Origin: a virus
Taxonomy: Duplodnaviria; Heunggongvirae; Uroviricota; Caudoviricetes
DNA length: 64,000 nt
Reading direction: 5' to 3' (one strand)
IMG/VR virus record: IMGVR_UViG_3300034072_000647
The position numbers and the translations under genes were made by a program. The notes below the pieces were generated by a model that saw only the letters and a list, made by a program, of their open reading frames with translations, ran no database searches and was not told the DNA's origin. Positions within the stretch are counted from its first letter, which is position 1, and each line of letters begins with the position of its first letter. Shown one piece after another: positions 3,819 to 54,058 of the stretch.

Positions 3819-4283
3819 TTAACCTGTAGCGAAGGACTTGAACCTAACACAGTGGTCAGCAGCATGAGAGGCTGCCCAGCCGTGGGGCTTGATAACGGGC
3901 TTGAAGCCCATTCCTAGGACCCAGCCAACGGCTTCGCTTACCGCGACGTTGGACTTGTGCTTAGGGTCGTTATTAAGATCCAAGTGAATCTCAAGTGGAC
4001 GATCTCCAAGAACTTCGGTAATTTGTGTAGCTGCTTCAAGAGCGTAATTCGTCTCCATTAGCAACCTATTTTTAAGACCTTGAGCACCTTGCCCGTAGTC
4101 ACGCAAAATCTGAATGTCGTAGAAAATACGGCAGCCATGACGACTATCGCGGTGAACTACAACTACAGTAGCGTAACGAGCGTACCACTCGTCGTTCTTC
4201 TTAAACCTGATGGAGTCACAGCCAATGTAGACGCTAGAGTCTTTGCTGGAATTCCGTACTTCCTCTTTAGCCTCTTCCCACAT
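3819..4283 (-). CDS. RNase H-like fold protein (tentative)
   Basis: The start was placed at an internal Met (MWEEAKEE) after a GGAGAA SD. A DSx and ETNYALEAA pattern resembles the RNase H catalytic core. The ORF-track start would overlap tRNAs. Confidence 0.45.
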   Translation of the reverse strand: MWEEAKEEVRNSSKDSSVYIGCDSIRFKKNDEWYARYATVVVVHRDSRHGCRIFYDIQILRDYGQGAQGLKNRLLMETNYALEAATQITEVLGDRPLEIHLDLNNDPKHKSNVAVSEAVGWVLGMGFKPVIKPHGWAASHAADHCVRFKSFATG

Positions 4284-4391: not shown

Positions 4392-4469
4392 TGGCGAAGG
4401 TTCAGAGAGTCGAACTCTGTCCTCAAGGTTTTGGAGACCCGCGGCTTAACCGTTTGCCCTAACCAACGC
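4392..4469 (-). tRNA. tRNA (anticodon unresolved)
   Basis: T-arm CAGAGTTCGACTCTCTG and a CCA end. The acceptor pairing is partial. Confidence 0.4.
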
Positions 4470-4728: not shown

Positions 4729-4801
4729 TGGTGGAGAAGATGGGTAACGATCCCACACGTTCCTGATTGCAAGTCAAGACGCTGTCCCATACAGCTTCCC
4801 C
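4729..4801 (-). tRNA. tRNA-Ala(TGC), non-canonical T-loop ATCGTTA
   Basis: Acceptor GGGGAAG/CTTCTCC and CCA end. Anticodon hairpin CTTGA-CTTGCAA-TCAGG. T-arm TGGG-ATCGTTA-CCCA. Confidence 0.5.
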
Positions 4802-4975
4802 ATTAATGTGATAGGCTTACTCGATCTCAGATCGGTCGGGGATTGAACCCGTTACATCACATGGCCAACTGCCGTAAAAATCTGTGAGGTCTTTGATACA
4901 TTCACGTTAGCTGGCACTTAACGCTTTCCCAACCTGCCAGGGTCAGCGGCTATTGCCGTCAAAGATACCTCGAAC

Positions 4976-5674: not shown

Positions 5675-5738
5675 GCTTCGTCTCCTCTTGATAAAGCCAT
5701 TATACATAATTCAGTAGTTAAAGTCAACACTTGATTTA

Positions 5739-7640: not shown

Positions 7641-7715
7641 TGGTACTCCTAAGGAATTCTGAGATCCTAACCTTCTGCGTGTCGAGCAGATGCTCTACCT
7701 TTGAGCTATAGGAGC
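7641..7715 (-). tRNA. tRNA-Val(GAC)-like with unusual T-loop
   Basis: Acceptor GCTCCTA/TAGGAGT. D-arm AGCTC...GAGCA. Anticodon TCTGC-TCGACAC-GCAGA (C33). CCA end. Confidence 0.45.
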
Positions 7716-8717: not shown

Positions 8718-8966
8718 CTTAATTATGAAAAAGTATCAAGAGCGACTAGGGCCTGTAAGTACCCTAGCTTTTCGGGCCGCTCCTGATGTAATCATTATAT
8801 TTGAAAATAGCCTCTAAGTCAAGACTTATTTTCTGGAAGCTTCGGAAATTGTTCTAGAAGGAGCAAGAAAAGAGCTTTGCGACTTAATGGTCCGTCTAAA
8901 GCGTTTAACTTGTTCATAAGCTGGTCAATAGCGAACCATTGACCAGCAATGAAACCTTCTAGGTAG

Positions 8967-10436
8967 TTACTGCCAGTCGTATCGTTCAATTTCGACTGCC
9001 TTACGCATGATAGCGTCAGGGGTGATCTTATCAAGGTCAACTGCAAGAATGGACTTCATGATAGCTGGCGAGAAACCAGAAACCAGAGCCACACCAGCCT
9101 CGTTGAACTTAACCGGCTTGTTACCGCGATCAGCGATGTTCCAGTAAACGATGACAGGAGTCTCGTAACCGGCATCCTGGTACATGCGAGCAATCATTGC
9201 CTGAGCACGGTCGTCGTAACGACCAGGATTGAACTGCATGTCAGACATGATAAGAATAATCTTAGGCATGTCCTCTGCGGGAACTCGATTGCTCATTGCG
9301 TGTGCAAGGATAAGATCGAAAACCGAGCGAAGGTTAGTGCTACCCCAAGCAGCAGAGCAAACAGCCGTAAGGCTTTCAGCAAGGCTGTTAGGGTTGTGAA
9401 CTACGAACTTGGCCTGATCGTTGAAGGAGATAGAGAGATTCTTGAAAGCTCCCTTTGACTTGCTTGCAACATACATACCCAGCGAAGCTGCGACGTCTGC
9501 GCAAGTAATCGTACCGGAGCCACCAGCTGGAGCGCCCATGGAACCGGAGTTATCAACGACAGCGATGACGTTCTGATCGTTCATGTAGTCAGGCAGAGCC
9601 TTCCACATGGCGGTAGCAACTTCATCGTCCTTGTAGTGCTGCGAGCGTCCATAACCATAACGGTTATAGCTAAGATCCTGCGCACCACCAATCATCTTGG
9701 TGATATCGTAAGGATAAACAGCCGAAGCGTTAACCTTCGCGACCTTAGGATCCCCCTTCTTCAGAGCTTCCTTGAAGGCACCGAACGCTTCTGGAGCATT
9801 ACGATGGAATGCGGTCATGTAGCGAGACATTGCGACCGAAGGAACGTGGGAGAAATTAATTCCATTCCACTCCTTCTTACACATGTCAGTCTCAACGACG
9901 TTCGTAAGGCCAACAAGCAGCTTACGGTACTCCTTAGGAGAAAGACCGAAAGTGTTGCGAAGCTCTACAGCCTTCGGACCCTTACGAGGCATCCACTTAG
10001 CCGCAAGACCATTTCCTTCGGAAAGAGCCTTAGCGATAAGATAGAAAGCCTTACGCTTAACAGCAGGGTTAGTGAAGATAAGCAGGTCGTCAAAACGGCC
10101 AATCTCTACCGTGTTGTCAAGAAGTTTGGACTCTGCAAGGATTGCAGGGTCATTCTTCTCAAGCCAAAGCAGGATATCTCGAAAGATCTTACGCTCACCA
10201 GCACCGCCGCGAATGTCACGAGCGTACTGAGCAATACGAATTGCGAGGTCTGCGTCCTGAGCGTAAGCTGCCTCAAAAGCAGGAATTACGTTCTGTCCGC
10301 GCATTGCGCCAACCGAACCGAAGAAGTCGACCAGAGCGCTAGAGGTAGTTGCAAAAGCACGCATACCGTTCTGCGTACGTGCAATTACAGGAGAGTGGCC
10401 GGCGGAGCGGCCGAGAGTGTTAACAAAAGTATTCAT
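8967..10436 (-). CDS. Ro60/TROVE-like protein with C-terminal vWA domain (Rsr-like)
   Basis: The C-terminal half has a vWA MIDAS motif (VVDNSGSM). The N-terminal half resembles the TROVE domain: FFGSVGAMRGQ...LAIRIAQYARDIRGG matches the Ro60 FGSEGGTYY...ALIRLIEDGRG region. Confidence 0.7.
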   Translation of the reverse strand: MNTFVNTLGRSAGHSPVIARTQNGMRAFATTSSALVDFFGSVGAMRGQNVIPAFEAAYAQDADLAIRIAQYARDIRGGAGERKIFRDILLWLEKNDPAILAESKLLDNTVEIGRFDDLLIFTNPAVKRKAFYLIAKALSEGNGLAAKWMPRKGPKAVELRNTFGLSPKEYRKLLVGLTNVVETDMCKKEWNGINFSHVPSVAMSRYMTAFHRNAPEAFGAFKEALKKGDPKVAKVNASAVYPYDITKMIGGAQDLSYNRYGYGRSQHYKDDEVATAMWKALPDYMNDQNVIAVVDNSGSMGAPAGGSGTITCADVAASLGMYVASKSKGAFKNLSISFNDQAKFVVHNPNSLAESLTAVCSAAWGSTNLRSVFDLILAHAMSNRVPAEDMPKIILIMSDMQFNPGRYDDRAQAMIARMYQDAGYETPVIVYWNIADRGNKPVKFNEAGVALVSGFSPAIMKSILAVDLDKITPDAIMRKAVEIERYDWQ

Positions 10437-10731: not shown

Positions 10732-10941
10732 TTATCCCTTTTGCTTTTTAGCTAGCTCATCGTCTAGCTTTTTCCATTCCTTGTCGAAGTCTTTCTTTTT
10801 ATTACCAGACAAGGTAGTAGTGTAGGCCTCAGTCCACTCGATTGCATCCCGCAAATACGGAGTAGGCTTGCCCAAAATCTTATTAGTCTCATCCATCATG
10901 ATCGCTCGTTGCATACGATCCCAGAAGAACTGTGCACTCAT
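10732..10941 (-). CDS. Hypothetical protein (69 aa)
   Basis: ORF. Confidence 0.45.
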   Translation of the reverse strand: MSAQFFWDRMQRAIMMDETNKILGKPTPYLRDAIEWTEAYTTTLSGNKKKDFDKEWKKLDDELAKKQKG

Positions 10942-11084
10942 TTCAGTATACCTTTCGACAGAGTTGAAGTCTGTTGCCTTACCATTAGGCTAATTTTCCT
11001 AGAGCGGAAAATATTGGAATTGAACCAATATAATTGTTTTGCTGCTAGTATACTTTATATACTTTAACAGGTTTCATAAAAGAC

Positions 11085-11598: not shown

Positions 11599-11685
11599 TG
11601 GTGGGAGGGTGTGAGATCGAATCACTCCGGGGTTAACCGAGCGGTTTTACAGACCGCGTGCTAGAACCACTAGCTTTACCCGCCC
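11599..11685 (-). tRNA. tRNA-Tyr(GTA), long variable arm
   Basis: Anticodon GCGGT-CTGTAAA-ACCGC, a variable arm, T-arm GTGATTCGATCTCAC, CCA end. Confidence 0.7.
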
Positions 11686-12254
11686 ATATGCGCTAGCTTA
11701 CCACAGACACGAGCACTAGCGAAGCTGCTCCCGCGAACTCCATTACCCATATCTCCTGATACAACAAAATCGGCCCTATTTCGAGCAGCGTGACTTACCT
11801 TAGTCGTCTGCTCCGTTCCCAATACAGCTACCACACCGGGCAAGGCTGCTGGATAGATACCTTCACTCTTGTCGTTACCAAGCGAGGCCACAATCGTTAG
11901 GCCAAGCTGGTCAGCTACAAACTTGAAATCTTTTGCGCCCTTCTCATCATTAGTAGAGAAAGAAGTACAAACATACTTTACTCCGGCCTTTTTCATTTCG
12001 ATCATTGCTTTATAGGCTATCTGCCAGTCAATAATCACTTCATTGGGTCGAGTAGCGTCTGGGTCACGCTCGAAAGGTGACGCATAATAAACTTTAACGT
12101 TAGGAGCATTTTCCTTGATGGCCTTTAGCACCAAGTCTCCATGCTTATAATCAGTGGATTTGGCACTAACCTGAGTCACTGTCACGGAAGCGTCCGAAGG
12201 CATTCCGTTATCAATAACACCTACAGCGGCTAGAGCCAGTGCAAAAATAAGCAT
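11676..12254 (-). CDS. Secreted compact subtilisin-like serine protease (tentative)
   Basis: Has a signal peptide. Candidate catalytic residues are D in VIDNG, H in KHGDLV and S in GSSFASARVCG (compare GTSMAAPHVAG). Confidence 0.55.
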   Translation of the reverse strand: MLIFALALAAVGVIDNGMPSDASVTVTQVSAKSTDYKHGDLVLKAIKENAPNVKVYYASPFERDPDATRPNEVIIDWQIAYKAMIEMKKAGVKYVCTSFSTNDEKGAKDFKFVADQLGLTIVASLGNDKSEGIYPAALPGVVAVLGTEQTTKVSHAARNRADFVVSGDMGNGVRGSSFASARVCGKLAHMGG

Positions 12255-12356: not shown

Positions 12357-12415
12357 ATGTCTCTCTTTGTTGAAGCCATTATATCCGTTTTAGCTTCTCA
12401 AGTCAACAATTAAAA

Positions 12416-12601
12416 TCACCAATGCGGTACAGCTATATACTCTTGATATAATTTCTCTAATTCCGTACCATCAACTTCTTCCCAAGACATACCCATTAAC
12501 AATTGCCAATTATCCGCGCTATAACGTTGATACTCGCCCCAAGGCTTCTCGGTGGTTCGTACAATCACTGAGCTAATAGGATGGATGCTTTTAATACGCA
12601 T
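12416..12601 (-). CDS. Hypothetical protein (61 aa)
   Basis: Started at an internal Met to avoid tRNA-Leu. Confidence 0.4.
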   Translation of the reverse strand: MRIKSIHPISSVIVRTTEKPWGEYQRYSADNWQLLMGMSWEEVDGTELEKLYQEYIAVPHW

Positions 12602-12617
12602 AATAACCTTTCTAAAC

Positions 12618-12703
12618 TGGTGGGGAAGGTGGGACTCGAACCCACACGGACTTTCATCCACTGCGTTCTAAGCGCAGCGCGGCTACCATTACACCACAAC
12701 CCC
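12618..12703 (-). tRNA. tRNA-Leu(TAG)
   Basis: Anticodon CTGCG-CTTAGAA-CGCAG, a long variable arm, T-arm GTGGGTTCGAGTCCCAC, CCA end. Confidence 0.7.
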
Positions 12704-12912
12704 GAAACTCTCCCAGTACCGGCTAAGCCGGCTCGCTACACATAGCTGGGATCTACGGATCTATACATATAAGGGCGTAGTTAACGTCTCTTCTCCAGAC
12801 TGTTGCCAGACAAGCTGTAGATTTGCAGCTCCCGCGTGTAACCTTACATGTTTACTAGGTCGGCTCCTGTAACCTCAGGGAACACTTTATACGGGACTGT
12901 GCCCAACCAAAC

Positions 12913-12988
12913 TGGTACTCCAGGTGAGACTTGAACTCACAAATTTACGGTTCTTAGCCGATTGCCTCTGCCGTTTGGCTACTGGAGC
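12913..12988 (-). tRNA. tRNA (anticodon unresolved; loop CTAAGAA on 3-bp stem)
   Basis: Acceptor GCTCCAG/CTGGAGT, D-arm GCC..GGC, T-arm GTGAGTTCAAGTCTCAC, CCA end. Confidence 0.5.
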
Positions 12989-13046
12989 ATGTATATCCGG
13001 CCGCCCCCAAGCATGGATCTTTATACCCCGAAAGGAGCCCATCAAA

Positions 13047-13529
13047 TTAGAAGCGGAAACCTACGCCTGCAAGCAGGGCATGGCTACCGGTATTACGGTC
13101 AAACTCAGAGTAATTGTACTGAGCCTTGATATAGGTAACGTCGCTAATCTTGCGCTCAACACCGGCACCTACCTTGAAGCCATCAAGCTTACGACTGAAA
13201 ACGTCGCGATAGTTATCGTAACCAGCATGGACATAGCCAAGAGTGCGTGGAGTGAAAGCGTAACCAAGACGTGCGCTAGCACCAATCATGCGCTCCTTTT
13301 CGAAGAAATTCGAGCTATTGGCTTCGACACCGATAGTCACTCGGTCGCCGAGCGGAGCATCGACACCGACTGCGGCTCCGTAAACCACGTCGTTAGCGTC
13401 TGGGCTGTTCTGAATGTCATTATATCCGGCAGTTACTTCGGCACGAACACCAGTGAAGGCAGCATTGGTCTGCGCAATGGCAGGGGTAGTGGCGAGGGCA
13501 GCAGCCGCTGCAAGTGCAATAAACTTCAT
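13047..13529 (-). CDS. Outer-membrane beta-barrel protein (OmpA/Omp25/opacity family-like) with signal peptide
   Basis: Starts MKFIALAAAAALATTPAIA after an AGGAGA SD. It has alternating amphipathic strands and ends in GVGFRF with a C-terminal Phe. Confidence 0.75.
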   Translation of the reverse strand: MKFIALAAAAALATTPAIAQTNAAFTGVRAEVTAGYNDIQNSPDANDVVYGAAVGVDAPLGDRVTIGVEANSSNFFEKERMIGASARLGYAFTPRTLGYVHAGYDNYRDVFSRKLDGFKVGAGVERKISDVTYIKAQYNYSEFDRNTGSHALLAGVGFRF

Positions 13530-13567
13530 TTTGTCTCCTAATGTGATGAGGAAGTACTCCTCGGAAC

Positions 13568-13642
13568 TGGAGCGGGCGACGGGAATCGAACCCGCTCTAT
13601 GTACGGTTTGGAAGACCGACCGCATACCTTATGCTCGCCTGC
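13568..13642 (-). tRNA. tRNA-Gly(TCC)
   Basis: Anticodon GCGGT-CTTCCAA-ACCGT. T-arm AGCGGGTTCGATTCCCGT. CCA end. Confidence 0.6.
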
Positions 13643-13742
13643 ATTAAACTTGTCCCTCTTTAACTCGTTTCCTCGACTGATTGCTAGCATCAGTATCGCT
13701 TATCGAGCGAGCGGGGAGGCTCAGCAGCCGTAGCTGTAAAAC

Positions 13743-13818
13743 TGGTCTAGGAGACAGGACTTGAACCTGCAACCCCCTGCTCCCAAAGCAGGTGCGCTAC
13801 CACTTGCGCTACTCCCAG
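13743..13818 (-). tRNA. tRNA-Pro(TGG)
   Basis: D-arm GCGCAAGTGGTAGCGC. Anticodon CCTGC-TTTGGGA-GCAGG. T-arm GCAGGTTCAAGTCCTGT. CCA end. Confidence 0.75.
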
Positions 13819-14273
13819 ATGAAAAAACTGGACCAGTTCACCTATAACACCTCACTGAGTGATGCGTGCTCTGTGTTTCCTGCTGCACTGGTAAGCAGCT
13901 CCCCCGAGAAGGCGGCACATTAGGTTCTCATCCTAATGGCTGGGGCGGTCCGGATGCCTCGCCGCTCTACCGAGTAGTAGCACAGCTTTATTGGCAGAGC
14001 AGGATACCGGCTCAATTTAGTCCCGAATACAATCAGTCCGGGCAGATGAATAGCGCTTTTAGGACCATCACCCAATCTCAAGTGGCTAGAGTGCCGTCCA
14101 CTCTCTAGCCCGCTAGTCCCATGTCAACGGAATGACTAGCCCCGCATCTATTCGTAGAGCGACCGGATGAACCTAACGCATGTTCATCACAACGTTATCA
14201 AGAGTTGCAATAAGCTCGTAAACTTCTGCATTGGGGCGGGTCTTCAAGTCCCGACTCCTCTCTTGATAAACTC

Positions 14274-14302
14274 ATTATAATTCAAGTCAGTTTCAATGTC
14301 AA
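14274..14302 (-). promoter_or_regulatory. Consensus promoter TTGACA-N17-TATAAT driving an ORF-free 430-nt segment and downstream tRNAs
   Basis: Minus sense: TTGACAttgaaactgacttgaatTATAATgag. Confidence 0.55.
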
Positions 14303-14318
14303 GAACTATTTTTCTAAC

Positions 14319-14395
14319 TGGTAGACCGGGTGGGGTTCGAACCCACATACGCGCGGATTAAAAGTCCGCCGTTCCGCCTATTGAACTACCGGTCC
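14319..14395 (-). tRNA. tRNA-Lys(TTT) second copy
   Basis: Anticodon GCGGA-CTTTTAA-TCCGC. T-arm GTGGGTTCGAACCCCAC. CCA end. Confidence 0.7.
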
Positions 14396-14601
14396 ATGAT
14401 GACTGTTCAACCTCGGCTATAGCTGGAACTTAATCCAGCTTATTAATTACAATCTTACTGTATTCAGGATTTTTATAGTCGACCGCCATTTCAAATATCA
14501 CCTCCCCTAGTGAGTTGAATAGTTTGAAATTTGAAATTTTCAGCGGCTCAAACTCAGGGCTGAACCAGCTTTTCAACCTTTGCCACATAAAGCACCTAAA
14601 A

Positions 14602-14677
14602 TGGTAGACGAGGTGGGGTTCGAACCCACGACCTAAGGATTAAGAGTCCCGCGCTCTGCCAACTGAGCTACACGTCC
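14602..14677 (-). tRNA. tRNA-Lys(CTT)
   Basis: D-arm TAGCTCAGTTGGCAGAGCG. Anticodon loop CTCTTAA. T-arm GTGGGTTCGAACCCCAC. CCA end. Confidence 0.6.
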
Positions 14678-14862
14678 GTGAAATATTCCTTTTGAAGCTG
14701 CCAATAGGTCAGCTCATTTTCTGCGTCACAAAGTTCATAATGAACCGAATACCACTCTTCGGACTCTTCTTCATAAGTGCTAAGTTCATTAGACAACTCA
14801 TGAACAAGACGTTCAGCTAAGTCTTCATTAGCTTCAATCTCTTCCCAAGTATGATCGTTCAT
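14668..14862 (-). CDS. Small acidic protein (64 aa)
   Basis: ORF downstream of a consensus early promoter. Confidence 0.5.
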   Translation of the reverse strand: MNDHTWEEIEANEDLAERLVHELSNELSTYEEESEEWYSVHYELCDAENELTYWQLQKEYFTDV

Positions 14863-14914
14863 TGCTATCTCCGCTCTTGATGCCTCATTATAACAAAGGC
14901 AGTAGTGAAAGTCA
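14862..14914 (-). promoter_or_regulatory. Consensus early promoter plus conserved leader GAGGCATCAAGAGCGGAGA (representative of 20 or more copies)
   Basis: Minus sense: TTGACTttcactactgcctttgtTATAATgaggcatcaagagcggagatagcaATG. Confidence 0.65.
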
Positions 14915-14931
14915 AGAACTATTTCAGTAAT

Positions 14932-15009
14932 TGGTGAACCGACGAGGATTTGAACCTCGATCCCAAGGATTAAGAGTCCCGGTATTAGCCTATTATTAAG
15001 ATCGGTCCA
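14932..15009 (-). tRNA. tRNA with CTCTTAA anticodon loop (Lys-CTT-like)
   Basis: T-arm CGAGGTTCAAATCCTCG, CCA end, AT-rich D-arm. Confidence 0.5.
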
Positions 15010-15169
15010 TTATCTCTCGTTGCTGTTTAACCGCCACAACGATGGCGTGATCTGCTTTTAGATTACCTGTTCCGTGACAGGCACAGCAGATGCGAAATTT
15101 GTCTTTGAATTTCGAGCCACGCTTAGGCTTGAATAAGTTACCACTTCCGCCGCATTTGTGACACAACAT
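14996..15169 (-). CDS. Small zinc-ribbon protein (57 aa)
   Basis: Unlisted ORF MLCHKCGGSGN...CCACHGTGN with a GGAGAC SD and a promoter upstream. Confidence 0.45.
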   Translation of the reverse strand: MLCHKCGGSGNLFKPKRGSKFKDKFRICCACHGTGNLKADHAIVVAVKQQREIMDRS

Positions 15170-15280
15170 GGTAGTCTCCGCTCTTGATGCCCAATTATAA
15201 CAAGGTTGGCGGTCAAAGTCAAGAACTAAATTTTAAGAGGTTGAATCCGTTTTAATTACAGAGATTCATCCCCGAAAGCT

Positions 15281-15316
15281 ATAAAAATAGCCGAGGCTCC
15301 GTCGAGAACCTCGGCT
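15281..15316 (-). terminator. Intrinsic terminator (minus strand)
   Basis: AGCCGAGG...CCTCGGCT hairpin followed by ATTTTTAT in minus sense. Confidence 0.55.
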
Positions 15317-15324
15317 ATAATAGA

Positions 15325-15395
15325 TGGTAGCAGACCTAGGTAACGATCCTAGCTAGTCCAGGATATGAGCCCGAACCCCTCCCTGAGGGACTGCC
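15325..15395 (-). tRNA. tRNA-like (T-loop ATCGTTA; anticodon unresolved)
   Basis: Acceptor GGCAGTC/GTCTGCT with a CCA end. The internal fold is unclear. Confidence 0.4.
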
Positions 15396-15398
15396 ACA

Positions 15399-15644
15399 TT
15401 AGCCTTCAGACTTTTCGTAGGTCGCTCGATCTACGCAGATCATGCGATTCAACTTCTTGTCTTTAATTAGAAAAGGCTTATCACTATTACAGTTTGGTTC
15501 ACTGTTATACACAGTTTTATGATATTCACTATCTAGTATTACTGCATTAGGCCCTGCGGTAACAATTACGCGCGGGTCTGCATTGGCGGGACTGCCAGCA
15601 GCCAACCCTAGTAAAAACAGTCCTGTGAGTAACTTATTAAACAT
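15399..15644 (-). CDS. Small secreted protein (signal peptide)
   Basis: Starts MFNKLLTGLFLLGLAAGSPANA. Confidence 0.5.
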   Translation of the reverse strand: MFNKLLTGLFLLGLAAGSPANADPRVIVTAGPNAVILDSEYHKTVYNSEPNCNSDKPFLIKDKKLNRMICVDRATYEKSEG

Positions 15645-27901: not shown

Positions 27902-28429
27902 AGAGTATCTCCTAAATTCTGTGGCCCGTTGGGTAACAAGGTGGGCCAGACCCCGGTCACTTATGCGGCGAGACGAATCTCGTCGAAAGCGACAACGTCA
28001 TTGTCGTTTGCGTTTACTTTTTGTGGCCAGTTTAAGTTTAGCCAGACTATAGCCTAACGTGCTTTTTTCACGCCGAATCGATCTCAGTTCTGCCCCATCA
28101 ATATTCTAGTAAAACTTCTAAGCTACACTGACCCATGCCAACGTCCTTAGACCATAGGAATCTCTCGTTTTGCAATCGAGCGCTTTGTTTTTCTGTTACC
28201 GCAGAATGGTCATTCGTCTTGTCGGGAGAGTAGTGCCTCGGTAAAAGCAGGGAGTCCCTATACTAGAATAATGGTGGAGCAGGTGGGAGTCAAACCCACG
28301 TCTTCAGCTGCTATTAAGTCGCTTCAAGCGGCTATTTAGTTAGATAAGTATAATGTTACCACGCAGGGTAGAGAACAATATACTTATCAATCTCGTTATG
28401 TCTCAATATACTAAATTTGAGCCGTCAAG

Positions 28430-53930: not shown

Positions 53931-54058
53931 TTTTAAGAGTCCTTTTGACTTTAGTGTTTCTCTATCAAGCTGCCTCATCGCCTCTTGATGTAATCCTTAT
54001 ATATCGGGCGAAGCATCCCGTCAACAAAAATCGACAAAAAATCTGAAAATCTTTTCTC

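What the first reader, a model, noticed from the sequence alone, without database searches (positions are those of the whole stretch)
13840..14270. GC-rich 430-nt ORF-free transcribed segment with its own consensus promoter inside the tRNA operon
A perfect TTGACA-N17-TATAAT promoter at 14274-14302 (minus strand) fires into about 430 nt with no plausible ORF, followed by tRNA-Pro. The segment is GC-rich and contains multiple hairpins, for example CGGGACTTGAAGACCCG and GGCTAGAGTGCCGTCCACTCTCTAGCC. On the opposite strand there is a tRNA-3'-end-like motif GCGGGTCTTCAAGTCCCGACTCC. This is a candidate stable or structured ncRNA; T5-type phages are known to make small stable RNAs in their tRNA regions.
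Basis: seen in the sequence. Interest (0 to 1): 0.5.

Follow-up and report, generated by a model that had tools for sequence, protein, structure and literature searches.

The report
Conserved structured RNA leading phage tRNA-Pro
The 450 bases between a perfect promoter and tRNA-Pro in this T5-like phage encode a non-coding RNA whose fold is conserved in 14 related uncultured phages and matches no catalogued RNA family; its function is unknown, as with the "stable RNAs" long annotated in phage T5's tRNA region.

Summary
A 12/12 TTGACA-N17-TATAAT promoter (14302..14274, minus strand) starts a 449-nt untranslated RNA (about 14267..13819) that ends where tRNA-Pro(UGG) begins.

It is a real, conserved, structured RNA. 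I found 13 further distinct homologs, all in uncultured T5-like phage contigs and all in the same place (after tRNA-Lys(UUU), before tRNA-Pro). Every member shares two hairpins: P4 (invariant UCCGUU in its loop) and P5 (loop AG(N)GGAYGGNA). Their stems covary: 98.4% of cells paired, 14 of 16 pairs with compensatory changes, slid controls 27-39%.

The family is modular. The element is absent in one phage and about 150 nt in the smallest versions. In others the stretch before tRNA-Pro carries homing-endonuclease genes, another ORF or further RNA. The window's 3' half is a second conserved RNA domain, seen in three phages, with a covarying pseudoknot.

There is no conserved ORF or leader peptide, no tRNA or tmRNA signal, and no Rfam match even at E<=10. 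The model finds nothing in T5 itself.

Most likely it is a stable RNA released from the pre-tRNA transcript by RNase P and acting in trans. The mechanism is inferred, not shown. A Ro60-like protein gene lies 3.4 kb downstream, but the RNA lacks Y-RNA hallmarks.

Verdict: a new family within a known kind; moderate interest.

The parts
14274..14302 (-). Sigma-70-type promoter: -35 TTGACA (14302..14297), 17-nt spacer, -10 TATAAT (14279..14274). Inferred start at A14267.
   Evidence: 12/12 consensus. The promoter plus ATCAAG start is a generic unit of this phage (11 matches vs 0.26 expected). It is conserved at the same site in 12 of the 14 related phage loci examined (L077 and L078 lack the standard form). 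The start site is inferred from spacing, not measured.
13819..14267 (-). The whole non-coding RNA element (449 nt), from the inferred transcription start to the base before tRNA-Pro.
   Evidence: No conserved ORF. Homologs at the same syntenic site in 13 other phages. No Rfam match.
14197..14267 (-). P1 domain. The closing helix AUCAAGAG (14267..14260) pairs with CUCUUGAU (14204..14197) and starts at +1. It encloses two hairpins, P1a (14258..14233) and P1b (14230..14206).
   Evidence: The 5' strand is the generic SD-containing leader that elsewhere precedes an ATG (L071/L072). A complementary 3' strand is present in 12 of 14 members at variable distance. The interior sequence differs among members. 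Coordinates.
14166..14188 (-). P2 hairpin GAUGAAC-AUGCGUUAG-GUUCAUC. Present only in the window/L001/L050 subgroup.
   Evidence: Compensatory with L001 (UUGUAG/CUACAA) and L050 (GUGCAG/CUGCAU). Coordinates.
14144..14160 (-). Pa hairpin (GCUCUA-CGAA-UAGAUGC), the short hairpin just 5' of the GGG that precedes P4.
   Evidence: A hairpin at this position occurs in all 14 members: 56/56 cells paired, 3-4 pair types at each of 4 positions, 0 of 2000 shuffles as good. The alignment was chosen by eye. The window's version differs in loop sequence and register from the UAGNNCUN consensus.
14112..14143 (-). GGG plus P4 hairpin: GCUAGUC (14140..14134) pairs with GACUAGC (14118..14112). The loop holds the invariant UCCGUU (14131..14126).
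   Evidence: Six of 7 pairs show compensatory changes across 14 sequences. UCCGUU is invariant.
14084..14110 (-). P5 hairpin: GGCUAGAG pairs with CUCUAGCC. Conserved loop AGUGGACGGCA (14102..14092; family consensus AG(N)GGAYGGNA).
   Evidence: Eight of 9 pairs show compensatory changes. Loop positions AG.GGA.GG.A are invariant in 14 sequences. The covariance model scores this core 58.1 bits, E 1e-14.
14074..14083 (-). Conserved tail after P5 (ACUUGAGAUU; family consensus ACGAGUUU/ACGAGAUU). In the minimal members tRNA-Pro follows within 2-24 nt.
14014..14073 (-). Variable insert module, with GCGCUAU in a hairpin loop. Absent in L054. Possibly related to a pseudoknot-like module shared by L050 and L058.
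   Evidence: Alignment A7 and inspection. The homology of the window's version is tentative.
13819..14013 (-). 3' accessory RNA domain shared with L050 and L054. Helices: H6 (14013..13997); H7 (13980..13967, loop UACUCG); CCCC (13945..13942) with GGGG (13905..13902); H8 (13937..13919, loop UGAGAA); H9 (13899..13882); a variable 3' hairpin.
   Evidence: About 70 nt are nearly identical among three phages whose OMP proteins are only 54-68% identical. 97% of cells are paired and 6 pairs are compensatory, against 35-47% paired when slid. Only three sequences.
13832..13892 (-). Pseudoknot: the H9 loop ACCAGU (13892..13887) pairs with ACUGGU (13837..13832), 13 nt upstream of tRNA-Pro.
   Evidence: Three of 6 pairs are compensatory among the three sequences (ACCAGU/ACUGGU, GCUGGU/ACCAGC, GCCAGU/ACUGGC). 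This uses the sequence that looks terminator-like in the window (AACUGGUCCAGUUUUUU), which is not a conserved hairpin in L050 or L054.
13743..13818 (-). tRNA-Pro(UGG), the first tRNA of the transcription unit. Its 5' end defines the inferred 3' end of the RNA.
   Evidence: ARAGORN; Rfam tRNA 63.4 bits. Processing by RNase P is inferred from general knowledge of tRNA 5' maturation.

Best explanation
This is a gene for a conserved, modular, highly structured non-coding RNA belonging to an uncultured clade of T5-like phages.

Shown:
- It lies between a consensus sigma-70 promoter and tRNA-Pro(UGG).
- It has no conserved ORF.
- The part common to all members is two hairpins whose stems covary and whose loops are invariant: P4 with UCCGUU and P5 with AG(N)GGAYGGNA. 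A short hairpin (Pa) precedes them.
- In 12 of 14 members there is also a 5'-terminal hairpin domain (P1). P1 pairs away the generic Shine-Dalgarno-containing leader that the same promoter type uses for mRNAs.
- In the window and two relatives a second, roughly 200-nt RNA domain with a covarying pseudoknot sits between this core and tRNA-Pro.

Inferred:
- The host RNA polymerase transcribes the RNA together with the downstream tRNAs.
- RNase P cleavage at the 5' end of tRNA-Pro releases it as a discrete RNA of about 450 nt in this phage and about 150 nt in the minimal members.
- Its 5' end is protected by the P1 hairpin, so it accumulates as a stable RNA, like the stable RNAs of the T4 and T5 tRNA clusters.
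- It acts in trans. The invariant single-stranded loops would serve as the contact surface for a protein or another RNA (scaffold or decoy). The variable modules would be peripheral decorations.

The molecular target is unknown.
For: - Promoter: 12/12 consensus, conserved at the same site in 12 of the 14 related loci examined.
- Homologs: found once per phage and only at this site. Model R2 gives 35-58 bits in 14 phages and nothing elsewhere in 0.5 Mb of related loci.
- Covariation in P4/P5: 98.4% of cells paired, 14/16 pairs compensatory, 73 compensatory cells vs 20.3 in shuffles, slid controls 27-39%. The four members that were not used to build the model (L074, L077, L078, L079) also score 35-52 bits and are included in that count.
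- Pa: 56/56 cells paired.
- Loops invariant while stems change.
- 3' domain: 6 compensatory pairs, including a pseudoknot.
- No conserved ORF or leader peptide.
- The same ATCAAGAG(G)AG start drives ordinary mRNAs elsewhere (L071/L072). In this element it is paired in P1.
- In L077 the core has no promoter of its own and lies between tRNA-Ala and a tRNA-Pro-like sequence. There it can only be made by processing of a polycistronic tRNA precursor.
- Size varies from 0 to about 450 nt while the core stays constant, as expected for an RNA whose function resides in the core.
- Precedent: T5 annotates stable RNAs of unknown function between promoters and tRNAs.
Against: - No expression, end-mapping or stability data exist. 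The start site, RNase P release and accumulation are all inferences.
- One relative (L060) has the promoter directly abutting tRNA-Pro with no element at all, so the RNA is dispensable in at least one genome.
- Its constant position, promoter-proximal and directly 5' of tRNA-Pro, is equally what a purely cis-acting leader would show.
- The P4/P5 alignments were hand-made or fitted to the model, which inflates pairing percentages somewhat.
- The 3' domain rests on three sequences.
- No trans target or partner was identified.
- Single-sequence folding energy is not unusual (z = -1.3).
Confidence: 0.6

Rival explanations
1. A purely cis-acting leader of the tRNA-Pro transcription unit. The structure would act only on its own transcript. 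It could protect the 5' end of the precursor, guide RNase P/E processing, or work as a processive antiterminator. In the last case the nascent hairpins would modify the transcribing polymerase so that it reads through the untranslated, structured tRNA region. HK022 put RNA and the rrn leader boxB-boxA work this way (recalled from memory).
For: - It is always promoter-proximal and on the same transcript as tRNA-Pro.
- The core is two adjacent hairpins, as in put RNA (memory).
- The first ~700 nt of the unit are untranslated: element, then tRNA-Pro and tRNA-Gly, before the OMP gene.
- P1 begins exactly at +1, as in known 5'-stabilising hairpins.
- The element can be lost without losing the promoter or the tRNA (L060), as expected for a modulatory leader.
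Against: - Invariant loops with freely covarying stems, plus an elaborate optional 200-nt pseudoknotted domain, are more than 5' protection requires.
- Transcription units here are short. The next strong promoter is only about 1.9 kb downstream, which reduces the need for long-range antitermination.
- No contiguous boxA-like sequence is conserved (inspection).
- ORFs of up to 0.6 kb (HNH, GIY-YIG and a 123-aa ORF) can separate the core from tRNA-Pro, so close coupling to tRNA-Pro processing is not required.
- No conserved terminator follows the element.
Confidence: 0.22
2. A non-canonical Y-RNA-like partner of the phage's Ro60-like protein. The RNA would bind the TROVE/vWA protein encoded 3.4 kb downstream and direct or regulate it, as Y RNAs do for bacterial Rsr.
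For: - The protein at 8967..10436 (minus strand; DUF2828+DUF7788, PHROG 'RNA-binding protein') gives an AlphaFold model (pLDDT 75.7). Its best PDB matches are a TROVE domain, Ro60 of Thermus phage phiLo (E 2e-8, TM 0.53), D. radiodurans Rsr and human Ro60.
- Bacterial and phage Y RNAs are reported to lie within 4 kb of the Ro60 gene on the same strand (PMC4201824). Here the distance is 3.4 kb on the same strand, and 2.4-5 kb in 8 relatives.
- No canonical Y RNA/YrlA is detectable anywhere in the window, so the protein's RNA partner is still unassigned.
Against: - Y-RNA hallmarks are missing. The RNA is 150-450 nt rather than 80-130 nt.
- No stem is formed by the 5' and 3' ends; the closing-helix test gave self vs cross p = 0.54.
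- There is no tRNA-like module and no GNCGAAN0-1G motif (inspection).
- Co-occurrence is imperfect. L060 has the protein but not the RNA. L056 and L064 have the RNA but no such gene in the 5-6 kb downstream that was fetched.
- 47 other phage loci with DUF2828 genes lack the RNA (R2 on 16 of them).
- A weak tRNA-like sequence at 10922..10999, 0.5 kb from the gene, is an alternative partner candidate.
Confidence: 0.1
3. An unrecognised self-cleaving ribozyme or other catalytic RNA that helps to process the precursor.
For: - The location in a tRNA precursor and the conserved unpaired nucleotides at fixed positions flanking the helices (GGG before P4, ACGAG after P5).
- A pseudoknot in the 3' domain.
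- Small ribozymes are known next to phage tRNAs (memory).
Against: - No match to any Rfam ribozyme family even at E<=10.
- Hammerhead-like and HDV-like patterns seen by eye in single sequences are not conserved across members.
- RNase P already accounts for the 3' end.
Confidence: 0.04
4. Non-functional spacer: a decayed ORF, a homing-endonuclease remnant, or horizontally acquired GC-rich filler that is transcribed only because it lies behind a promoter.
For: - The site between the core and tRNA-Pro is an insertion hot spot carrying HNH, GIY-YIG and other ORFs in relatives.
- The element is absent in L060.
- The window has a 24-aa ORF with an SD-like sequence at 14247..14173.
Against: - Compensatory substitutions that maintain helices and invariant loops across 14 diverged phages are the signature of selection on RNA structure, not of decay.
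- ORFs differ in position, frame and length in every homolog.
- No bacterial-genome source was found.
Confidence: 0.03

Closest known systems
Stable RNAs of the phage T5 tRNA region (RNA2H, RNAX, RNAI, RNAIII, RNAIV, tRNA-like RNA1/2/3), and the analogous species 1/2 RNAs of the T4 tRNA cluster
   Same: - Same phage lineage (T5-like) and same genomic setting inside the tRNA array.
- Same architecture: promoter, then a non-coding RNA of 100-700 nt, then a tRNA. RNA2H follows promoter P13b just after tRNA-Lys(UUU)/Val; RNAX follows promoter P16-17.
- Function unknown.
- T5 RNA2H also appears to begin with a hairpin that buries a GAGGAG leader (by inspection).
- The T4 comparison is from memory.
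   Different: - No detectable sequence or structure homology. Model R2 finds nothing in T5 22-46 kb, and blastn finds nothing in 50,697 GenBank phages.
- The T5 RNAs were defined biochemically. This family is defined only by comparative analysis.
ROOL and GOLLD, large 'ornate' phage/prophage RNAs
   Same: - Encoded in phages, often near tRNA islands, with unknown function.
- Complex folds with pseudoknots.
- GOLLD has a universally conserved part and a less conserved part.
- Loop-loop (kissing) contacts are central to their architecture (PMC12286853).
- This family is likewise modular. Its two invariant loops are mutually complementary over 5 nt (CCGUU with GAYGG; inspection).
   Different: - No match to the Rfam models.
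- Smaller: 150-450 nt, against GOLLD members that often exceed 800 nt (ROOL size from memory, about 580 nt).
- Oligomerisation is untested.
- The loop complementarity cannot be tested by covariation, because the only variation is C/U opposite G.
Bacterial and phage Y RNAs (YrlA) with Ro60/Rsr
   Same: Encoded on the same strand within 4 kb of a Ro60-like gene, in a tRNA-rich context.
   Different: - Lacks the terminal Ro-binding stem, the tRNA-like module and the GNCGAAN0-1G motif.
- Lies outside the 80-130 nt size range.
- Co-occurrence with the protein is imperfect.
HK022 put RNA and rrn/lambda leader antitermination elements (from memory)
   Same: Promoter-proximal, cis-encoded, built from two adjacent hairpins in an untranslated transcript.
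   Different: - No sequence similarity was tested, because no model of put was available to me.
- Here the loops are conserved rather than the stems.
- The family carries large optional domains.
- One member has no promoter of its own (L077).
- No contiguous boxA is conserved.

Membership tests
Any Rfam 15 family (including ROOL, GOLLD, tmRNA, RNase P RNA, group I/II introns, riboswitches, small ribozymes, Y RNA) | Match to the family covariance model | tested here: not met
   cmscan of the window element at E<=1, L001 at E<=5 and the L050 element at E<=10 gave no hit. The L058 spacer gave only three chance-level partial hits (11-14 bits, E 5.8-8.6, 28-42 bits below each family's gathering score). 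The whole window at gathering score gave only tRNAs and a permuted tmRNA elsewhere.
ROOL/GOLLD-type ornate phage RNAs | Phage-encoded and located near tRNA islands | tested here: met
   The element lies inside a 30+ tRNA array of a T5-like phage. The description of this context is from PMC12286853.
ROOL/GOLLD-type ornate phage RNAs | RNA-only homo-oligomeric assembly (nanocage) | not testable with these tools
   Needs native gels or cryo-EM. The only hint is a 5-nt complementarity between the invariant P4 and P5 loops.
Y RNA / YrlA | Encoded within about 4 kb of a Ro60 ortholog on the same strand | tested here: met
   The Ro60-like fold of the 8967..10436 product is supported. The gap to the element is 3.4 kb, same strand. 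The criterion is from PMC4201824.
Y RNA / YrlA | 80-130 nt, with a long stem formed by the 5' and 3' ends that carries the Ro60 binding site | tested here: not met
   The element is 449 nt here and about 150 nt in the minimal members. P1 is a local hairpin. A closing helix between the linker and the tail has no support (self vs cross duplex energy p = 0.54).
Y RNA / YrlA | tRNA-like module and GNCGAAN0-1G motif | tested here: not met
   No tRNA-model hit inside the element on either strand. The motif is absent on inspection of the 14 sequences.
Y RNA / YrlA | Co-occurrence with the Ro60 gene across genomes | tested here: inconclusive
   Both are present in 11 loci. L060 has the protein only. 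L056 and L064 have the RNA only within the DNA fetched. 47 other DUF2828 loci lack the RNA. The loci are only about 10 kb, so absences are not proven.
T5 tRNA-region stable RNAs | Non-coding segment inside the tRNA region, between a promoter and a tRNA | tested here: met
T5 tRNA-region stable RNAs | Homology to one of the T5 RNAs | tested here: not met
   R2 gave no hit in NC_005859 22000-46000. There is no visible similarity to RNA2H, and blastn against GenBank phages was negative.
T5 tRNA-region stable RNAs | Accumulates as a stable RNA in infected cells | not testable with these tools
   Needs northern blots or RNA-seq. The phage is uncultured.
   Nothing on either strand of 13819..14267. 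The quoted motif forms a 4-bp stem with a 9-nt loop and lies in hairpin P1a, inside P1, whose interior sequence differs among the homologs.
Riboswitch / attenuator leader | Conserved expression platform (terminator or sequestered RBS) after the aptamer | tested here: not met
   The terminator-like AACUGGUCCAGUUUUUU is not a hairpin in L050 or L054. Its ACUGGU pairs instead in a covarying pseudoknot. Minimal members end 2-24 nt before tRNA-Pro with no platform.
Protein-coding gene / leader peptide | ORF conserved in position, frame and sequence among homologs | tested here: not met
put-type processive antiterminator RNA | Makes RNA polymerase terminator-resistant in cis | not testable with these tools
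   Only the promoter-proximal, two-hairpin arrangement resembles it, and that resemblance is recalled from memory.

The most novel reading that the evidence does not exclude
The RNA is the dedicated partner of the phage's Ro60-like (TROVE+vWA) protein encoded 3.4 kb downstream. That would make it a new, non-canonical kind of Y RNA: it lacks the terminal stem and the tRNA-like module, and would present the invariant UCCGUU and GGAYGG loops instead. Together they would form a phage ribonucleoprotein acting on host or phage RNA (for example tRNA quality control or evasion of tRNA-targeting defences) during infection.
Probability: 0.1. Interest if true: 0.75.

Novelty: new member of a known kind. 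Interest (0 to 1): 0.55.

Why it matters
Phage tRNA clusters have been known for decades to carry stable RNAs of unknown function (T4 species 1/2, from memory; T5 RNAI/III/X/2H). Large ornate phage RNAs near tRNA islands (ROOL, GOLLD) have recently been shown to form RNA-only cages, still with no known role (PMC12286853).

This finding adds a new family to that unexplained category. It has an unusually clear comparative signature: invariant loops, fully covarying stems, a pseudoknot, and a natural series of deletion and insertion variants from 0 to about 450 nt. That series already delimits a functional core of about 150 nt.

The promoter is a perfect E. coli-type consensus. The cassette could therefore be expressed and probed heterologously even though the phage is uncultured.

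The same tRNA region also encodes a Ro60-like protein with no recognisable Y RNA, which gives a concrete binding hypothesis to test.

If the RNA turns out to be only a cis leader, the result is of local interest to phage transcription.

Tried and rejected
1. Known RNA families: Rfam scans of four homologs and of the whole window gave nothing for this element.
2. SAM-I riboswitch: the first 14 nt (UAUCAAGAGAGG) resemble the start of a SAM-I riboswitch and a stretch of E. coli tmRNA (memory). This is coincidence. It is the generic promoter-proximal leader of this phage.
3. Opposite-strand T-arm / permuted tmRNA reading: rejected. A genuine permuted tmRNA lies elsewhere, at 27961..28335.
4. Closing helix between the linker before GGG and the tail after P5, which would make a three-way junction. 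It looked plausible by eye, but self vs non-self duplex energies are indistinguishable (p = 0.54).
5. Leader peptide: a 24-aa ORF with an SD-like sequence in the window and a 14-aa ORF in L001 share a frame only because the P1 3' strand is conserved. Other homologs have unrelated ORFs of 1-46 codons.
6. Intrinsic terminator before tRNA-Pro: not conserved; the sequence is used in a pseudoknot.
7. Hammerhead-like (UGAUGA...GAA) and HDV-like patterns seen by eye in L062/L054: not conserved across members and not supported by Rfam.
8. boxA-like reading of the Pa loop and linker: the pieces are not contiguous and not conserved.
9. Homology to T5 RNA2H: none.
10. General association with DUF2828 genes: 47 other DUF2828 loci lack the RNA.
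11. Core-pattern scan of IMG/VR: it returned one hit (L080) that lies in a coding region with no hairpins, so it is a chance match.
12. Bacterial origin: two genome-collection scans found only one MAG contig, which is itself phage-like.
13. A constrained full-length fold script mis-placed several constraints and was discarded.
Full report
**What is in the window.** On the minus strand, TTGACA (14302..14297), a 17-nt spacer and TATAAT (14279..14274) form the only 12/12 promoter match in 12500-15500. Seven bases after the -10 hexamer lies A14267. From there to the base before tRNA-Pro(UGG) (13818..13743) there are 449 nt.
- The longest ORFs are 53 aa on the transcribed strand and 80 aa on the other.
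- GC is 0.52 over the element, against about 0.45 for the window. That is modest and similar to the flanking tRNAs.
- Folding the single sequence is unremarkable (z = -1.3).
- Rfam gives no match in the segment at E<=1.

The window is a distant T5-like phage. Its A1 protein is about 41% identical to those of T5-like phages and its large terminase at most 48% identical to any GenBank phage. It carries more than 30 tRNA genes on the minus strand.

**Finding relatives.** No GenBank phage has nucleotide similarity to the segment. Relatives came from four routes.
- Neighbouring proteins. The DUF2828 protein led to L001. The outer-membrane beta-barrel protein downstream of tRNA-Pro led to L050. A profile search of 5.8 billion proteins with that OMP, followed by contig look-ups, gave L056-L066 and L075-L079.
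- One metagenome scan with a conserved 3' block gave L053, identical to the window across the element (same CM score) with its tested 60-nt anchor matching exactly, and L054.
- A scan with the promoter-plus-start pattern gave L074 and others.
- Gene order is conserved throughout these contigs: ThyX, AdoMet decarboxylase, tRNA-Val/Ile/Gln, tRNA-Lys(CUU), tRNA-Lys(UUU), then this site, tRNA-Pro(UGG), tRNA-Gly(UCC), the OMP gene, tRNA-Leu and the DUF2828 gene.

**The element is conserved, single-copy and modular.**
- A first model built from window + L001 (R1) found L050 at the syntenic site.
- A second model of the two most conserved hairpins (R2) finds exactly one match per phage, in 14 distinct phages, at 35-58 bits. 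It finds nothing else in about 0.5 Mb of related and unrelated phage loci.
- All matches lie between the conserved promoter (AAAATAGTTCTTGACTT-N17-TATAATGAGTT) and tRNA-Pro.
- L077 is the exception. Its core has no promoter of its own and sits between tRNA-Ala and a degenerate tRNA-Pro-like sequence.
- The distance from promoter to tRNA-Pro varies widely:
  - essentially zero in L060, where there is no element;
  - about 110-190 nt in L078, L064 and L056;
  - about 250 nt in L062, and roughly 270-290 nt in L065 and L066;
  - 350-470 nt in L054, L058, the window and L050;
  - more where ORFs are inserted (HNH endonuclease in L001, GIY-YIG endonuclease in L074, a 123-aa ORF in L079).

**Structure of the common core.** Window coordinates are.
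- P1: AUCAAGAG (14267..14260) pairs with CUCUUGAU (14204..14197) and encloses hairpins P1a and P1b.
- P2: 14188..14166. This hairpin is specific to a subgroup.
- Pa: 14160..14144.
- GGG, then P4 (14140..14112), whose loop contains UCCGUU.
- P5 (14110..14084), with loop AGUGGACGGCA.
- A conserved tail, ACGAG(A/U)UU.

On a hand-made alignment of 10 sequences, 98.5% of P4/P5 cells are paired and 13 of 16 pairs show compensatory changes. On the model-fitted alignment of all 14:
- 98.4% of cells are paired and 14 of 16 pairs are compensatory;
- there are 73 compensatory cells against 20.3 +/- 3.5 in shuffles (0 of 500 as high);
- sliding the 3' partners by 1-3 columns drops pairing to 27-39%.

Four of the 14 (L074, L077, L078, L079) were not used to build the model; they score 35-52 bits and are included in that count. 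These alignments were made with the structure in mind, which favours it, but the margin over the slid controls is very large. Pa is paired in 56 of 56 cells, with 3-4 pair types per position (chosen by eye). UCCGUU, AG.GGA.GG.A and the GG before P4 are invariant while the stems change completely.

**P1 and the generic leader.** The 5' strand of P1 is not specific to this RNA.
- The same promoter plus ATCAAGAG(G)AG start recurs 11 times in the window (0.26 expected).
- Elsewhere it is an ordinary mRNA leader with a Shine-Dalgarno sequence and an ATG (window 5687 region; L071 and L072).
- In this element no conserved start codon follows. Instead a complementary strand 27-70 nt downstream pairs with the leader in 12 of 14 members.

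**The window's 3' half.** After P5 the window has a 60-nt insert (14073..14014) and then a roughly 195-nt domain (14013..13819) shared with L050 and L054.
- It includes a block of about 70 nt that is nearly identical among phages whose OMP proteins are only 54-68% identical.
- With three sequences the proposed helices are 97% paired, with 6 compensatory pairs, against 35-47% paired when slid.
- Three of those compensatory pairs belong to a pseudoknot between the loop of hairpin H9 (13892..13887) and ACUGGU (13837..13832).
- This matters for interpretation. In the window the sequence AACUGGUCCAGUUUUUU looks like a weak terminator, but it is not a hairpin in the relatives and covaries with the distant loop instead.
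- L050 and L058 share yet another pseudoknot-like insert. The region between core and tRNA-Pro is therefore a hot spot that accepts RNA modules or free-standing homing-endonuclease genes.

**What it is not.**
- Not protein-coding. ORFs differ in frame, place and length in each homolog. The window's ORF peptides match relatives only across the most conserved nucleotide block. ORFs near the start range from 1 to 46 codons with unrelated sequences.
- Not a tRNA or tmRNA on either strand.
- Not any Rfam 15 family. The window element (E<=1), L001 (E<=5) and the L050 element (E<=10) gave no hit; the L058 spacer gave only three chance-level partial hits (11-14 bits, E 5.8-8.6) far below each family's gathering score.
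- Not a riboswitch with an expression platform (minimal members).
- Not homologous to T5's own stable RNAs.
- Not of detectable bacterial origin.
- A closing helix that would make a three-way junction is not supported (p = 0.54).

**How it most likely works.** Three things are shown: a strong consensus promoter, a conserved complex fold, and its position as the 5' part of the tRNA-Pro transcript.

The rest is inferred. RNase P cleavage at the 5' end of tRNA-Pro (general tRNA biology) would release the RNA with its 5' triphosphate end buried in P1. That arrangement generally stabilises bacterial RNAs. L077, whose core is flanked by tRNAs and has no promoter, can only produce it by precursor processing.

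Invariant loops on freely covarying stems, plus optional peripheral domains, are what one sees in RNAs whose core contacts a partner. I therefore favour a stable trans-acting RNA (scaffold or decoy) with an unknown target. I give this about 0.6, counting the near-certain part, namely that it is a genuine structured ncRNA gene.

The main rival (about 0.2) is a purely cis-acting leader for 5' protection, processing or put-like antitermination. Its constant promoter-proximal position fits that reading equally well. Short transcription units (the next promoter is about 1.9 kb downstream), the tolerance of 0.6-kb ORF insertions before tRNA-Pro, and the elaborate optional domain argue against it.

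**The Ro60-like neighbour.** The 489-aa product of 8967..10436 (DUF2828+DUF7788; PHROG 'RNA-binding protein') has no sequence match in the PDB. Its AlphaFold model (pLDDT 75.7, pTM 0.63) is most similar to these entries:
- a TROVE domain (9kop);
- Ro60 of Thermus phage phiLo (9l5y; E 2e-8, TM 0.53);
- D. radiodurans Rsr;
- human Ro60.

Y RNAs of bacteria and phages are reported to lie within 4 kb of the Ro60 gene on the same strand (PMC4201824). This element does (3.4 kb), and no canonical Y RNA or YrlA is detectable in the window. However:
- the element lacks the terminal stem, the tRNA-like module, the motif and the size of Y RNAs;
- L060 has the protein without the RNA;
- L056 and L064 have the RNA without the gene in the DNA fetched;
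- 47 other DUF2828 loci lack the RNA.

I keep this as the most novel reading not excluded (about 0.1).

**Comparison with what is known.** The closest known things are of the same kind, not the same family.
- The T5 record annotates RNA2H (172 nt, between promoter P13b and tRNA-Ala, just after tRNA-Lys(UUU)/Val), RNAX (719 nt, between a promoter and tRNA-Arg) and others as 'stable RNA with unknown functions'.
- T4 has similar species (from memory).
- ROOL and GOLLD are large ornate phage RNAs near tRNA islands with unknown function and kissing-loop-based assemblies (PMC12286853).

The present RNA shares their setting and their mystery, but not their sequence or fold. Its two invariant loops are complementary over 5 nt (CCGUU/GAYGG). 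The only variation, C/U opposite G, is compatible with pairing but cannot prove it.

**Verdict.** This is a previously uncatalogued structured RNA family: 14 members, all in one uncultured T5-like clade. It is a new member of the known category of tRNA-cluster RNAs of unknown function. Interest is moderate (0.55). The comparative signal is strong and the modular anatomy is informative, but function is unknown, the family is narrow, and no experiment is yet possible on the native phage.

Noticed in passing
window 27961-28335 (-): A permuted (two-piece) tmRNA gene: Rfam tmRNA_permuted, 85.6 bits, E 5.6e-15. ARAGORN missed it. A phage-borne permuted tmRNA hints at a host lineage that uses two-piece tmRNA, for example alphaproteobacteria (from memory).
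   Followed up: no
window 8967-10436 (-): The DUF2828+DUF7788 protein (PHROG 850, 'RNA-binding protein') is predicted to have a Ro60/TROVE+vWA fold. Its best PDB matches are 9kop, Thermus phage phiLo Ro60 9l5y, Rsr 2nvo and human Ro60. It sits inside the tRNA array, and no Y RNA/YrlA is detectable.
   Followed up: partly
window 10922-10999 (-): A weak tRNA-like sequence (Rfam tRNA 29.2 bits, not called by ARAGORN) lies 0.5 kb upstream of the Ro60-like gene. It is a possible YrlA-like candidate.
   Followed up: no
window 13571-13642 (-); also 14935-15008, 7644-7715, 2834-2909, 4395-4467 (-): tRNA genes missed by ARAGORN but above the Rfam gathering score. 13571-13642 is syntenic with tRNA-Gly(UCC) of the relatives and, by eye, has an A-C mismatch in the acceptor stem.
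   Followed up: partly
window 13047-13529 (-): An outer-membrane beta-barrel protein gene (PF13505) with a signal-peptide-like N-terminus is embedded in the tRNA array. It is conserved across this phage clade and also present in a T4-like contig (L067). JGI names its homologs 'outer membrane immunogenic protein'.
   Followed up: partly
window, 11 sites, e.g. 5687-5727, 8782-8822, 12366-12406, 53984-54024 (-): A stereotyped strong promoter with a conserved initial transcribed sequence (TTGACTT-N17-TATAATGxxTTyATCAAGAG, containing an SD-like GAGGAG) recurs throughout (11 matches vs 0.26 expected). At 5687 it drives an ordinary mRNA.
   Followed up: partly
L001 5581-6180 and 4050-4940; L074 about 955-1580; L079 3048-3419: Free-standing homing-endonuclease genes (HNH in L001, GIY-YIG in L074) and an unknown 123-aa ORF are inserted exactly between the RNA core and tRNA-Pro. 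This suggests the conserved RNA/tRNA sequences serve as homing targets.
   Followed up: no
L001 5495-5570: By eye, a degenerate tRNA-like sequence with a CAU anticodon loop and an enlarged T-loop follows the RNA core and precedes the HNH ORF. Neither ARAGORN nor Rfam calls it.
   Followed up: no
L050 about 4770-4835 and L058 about 3905-3970: A shared insert module has covarying stems arranged as a pseudoknot (CUCCUAC...CCUAG..GUAGGAG.CUAGG vs UUCCUAC...GCUGG..GUAGGAA.CCAGC) and a conserved GCGCUAUC loop. The window's 14014-14073 insert also carries GCGCUAU.
   Followed up: no
window 11676-12254 (-): A 192-aa ORF with weak similarity to subtilase / phage protease (Pfam Peptidase_S8 E 2e-6; PHROG protease) lies within the tRNA region.
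   Followed up: no
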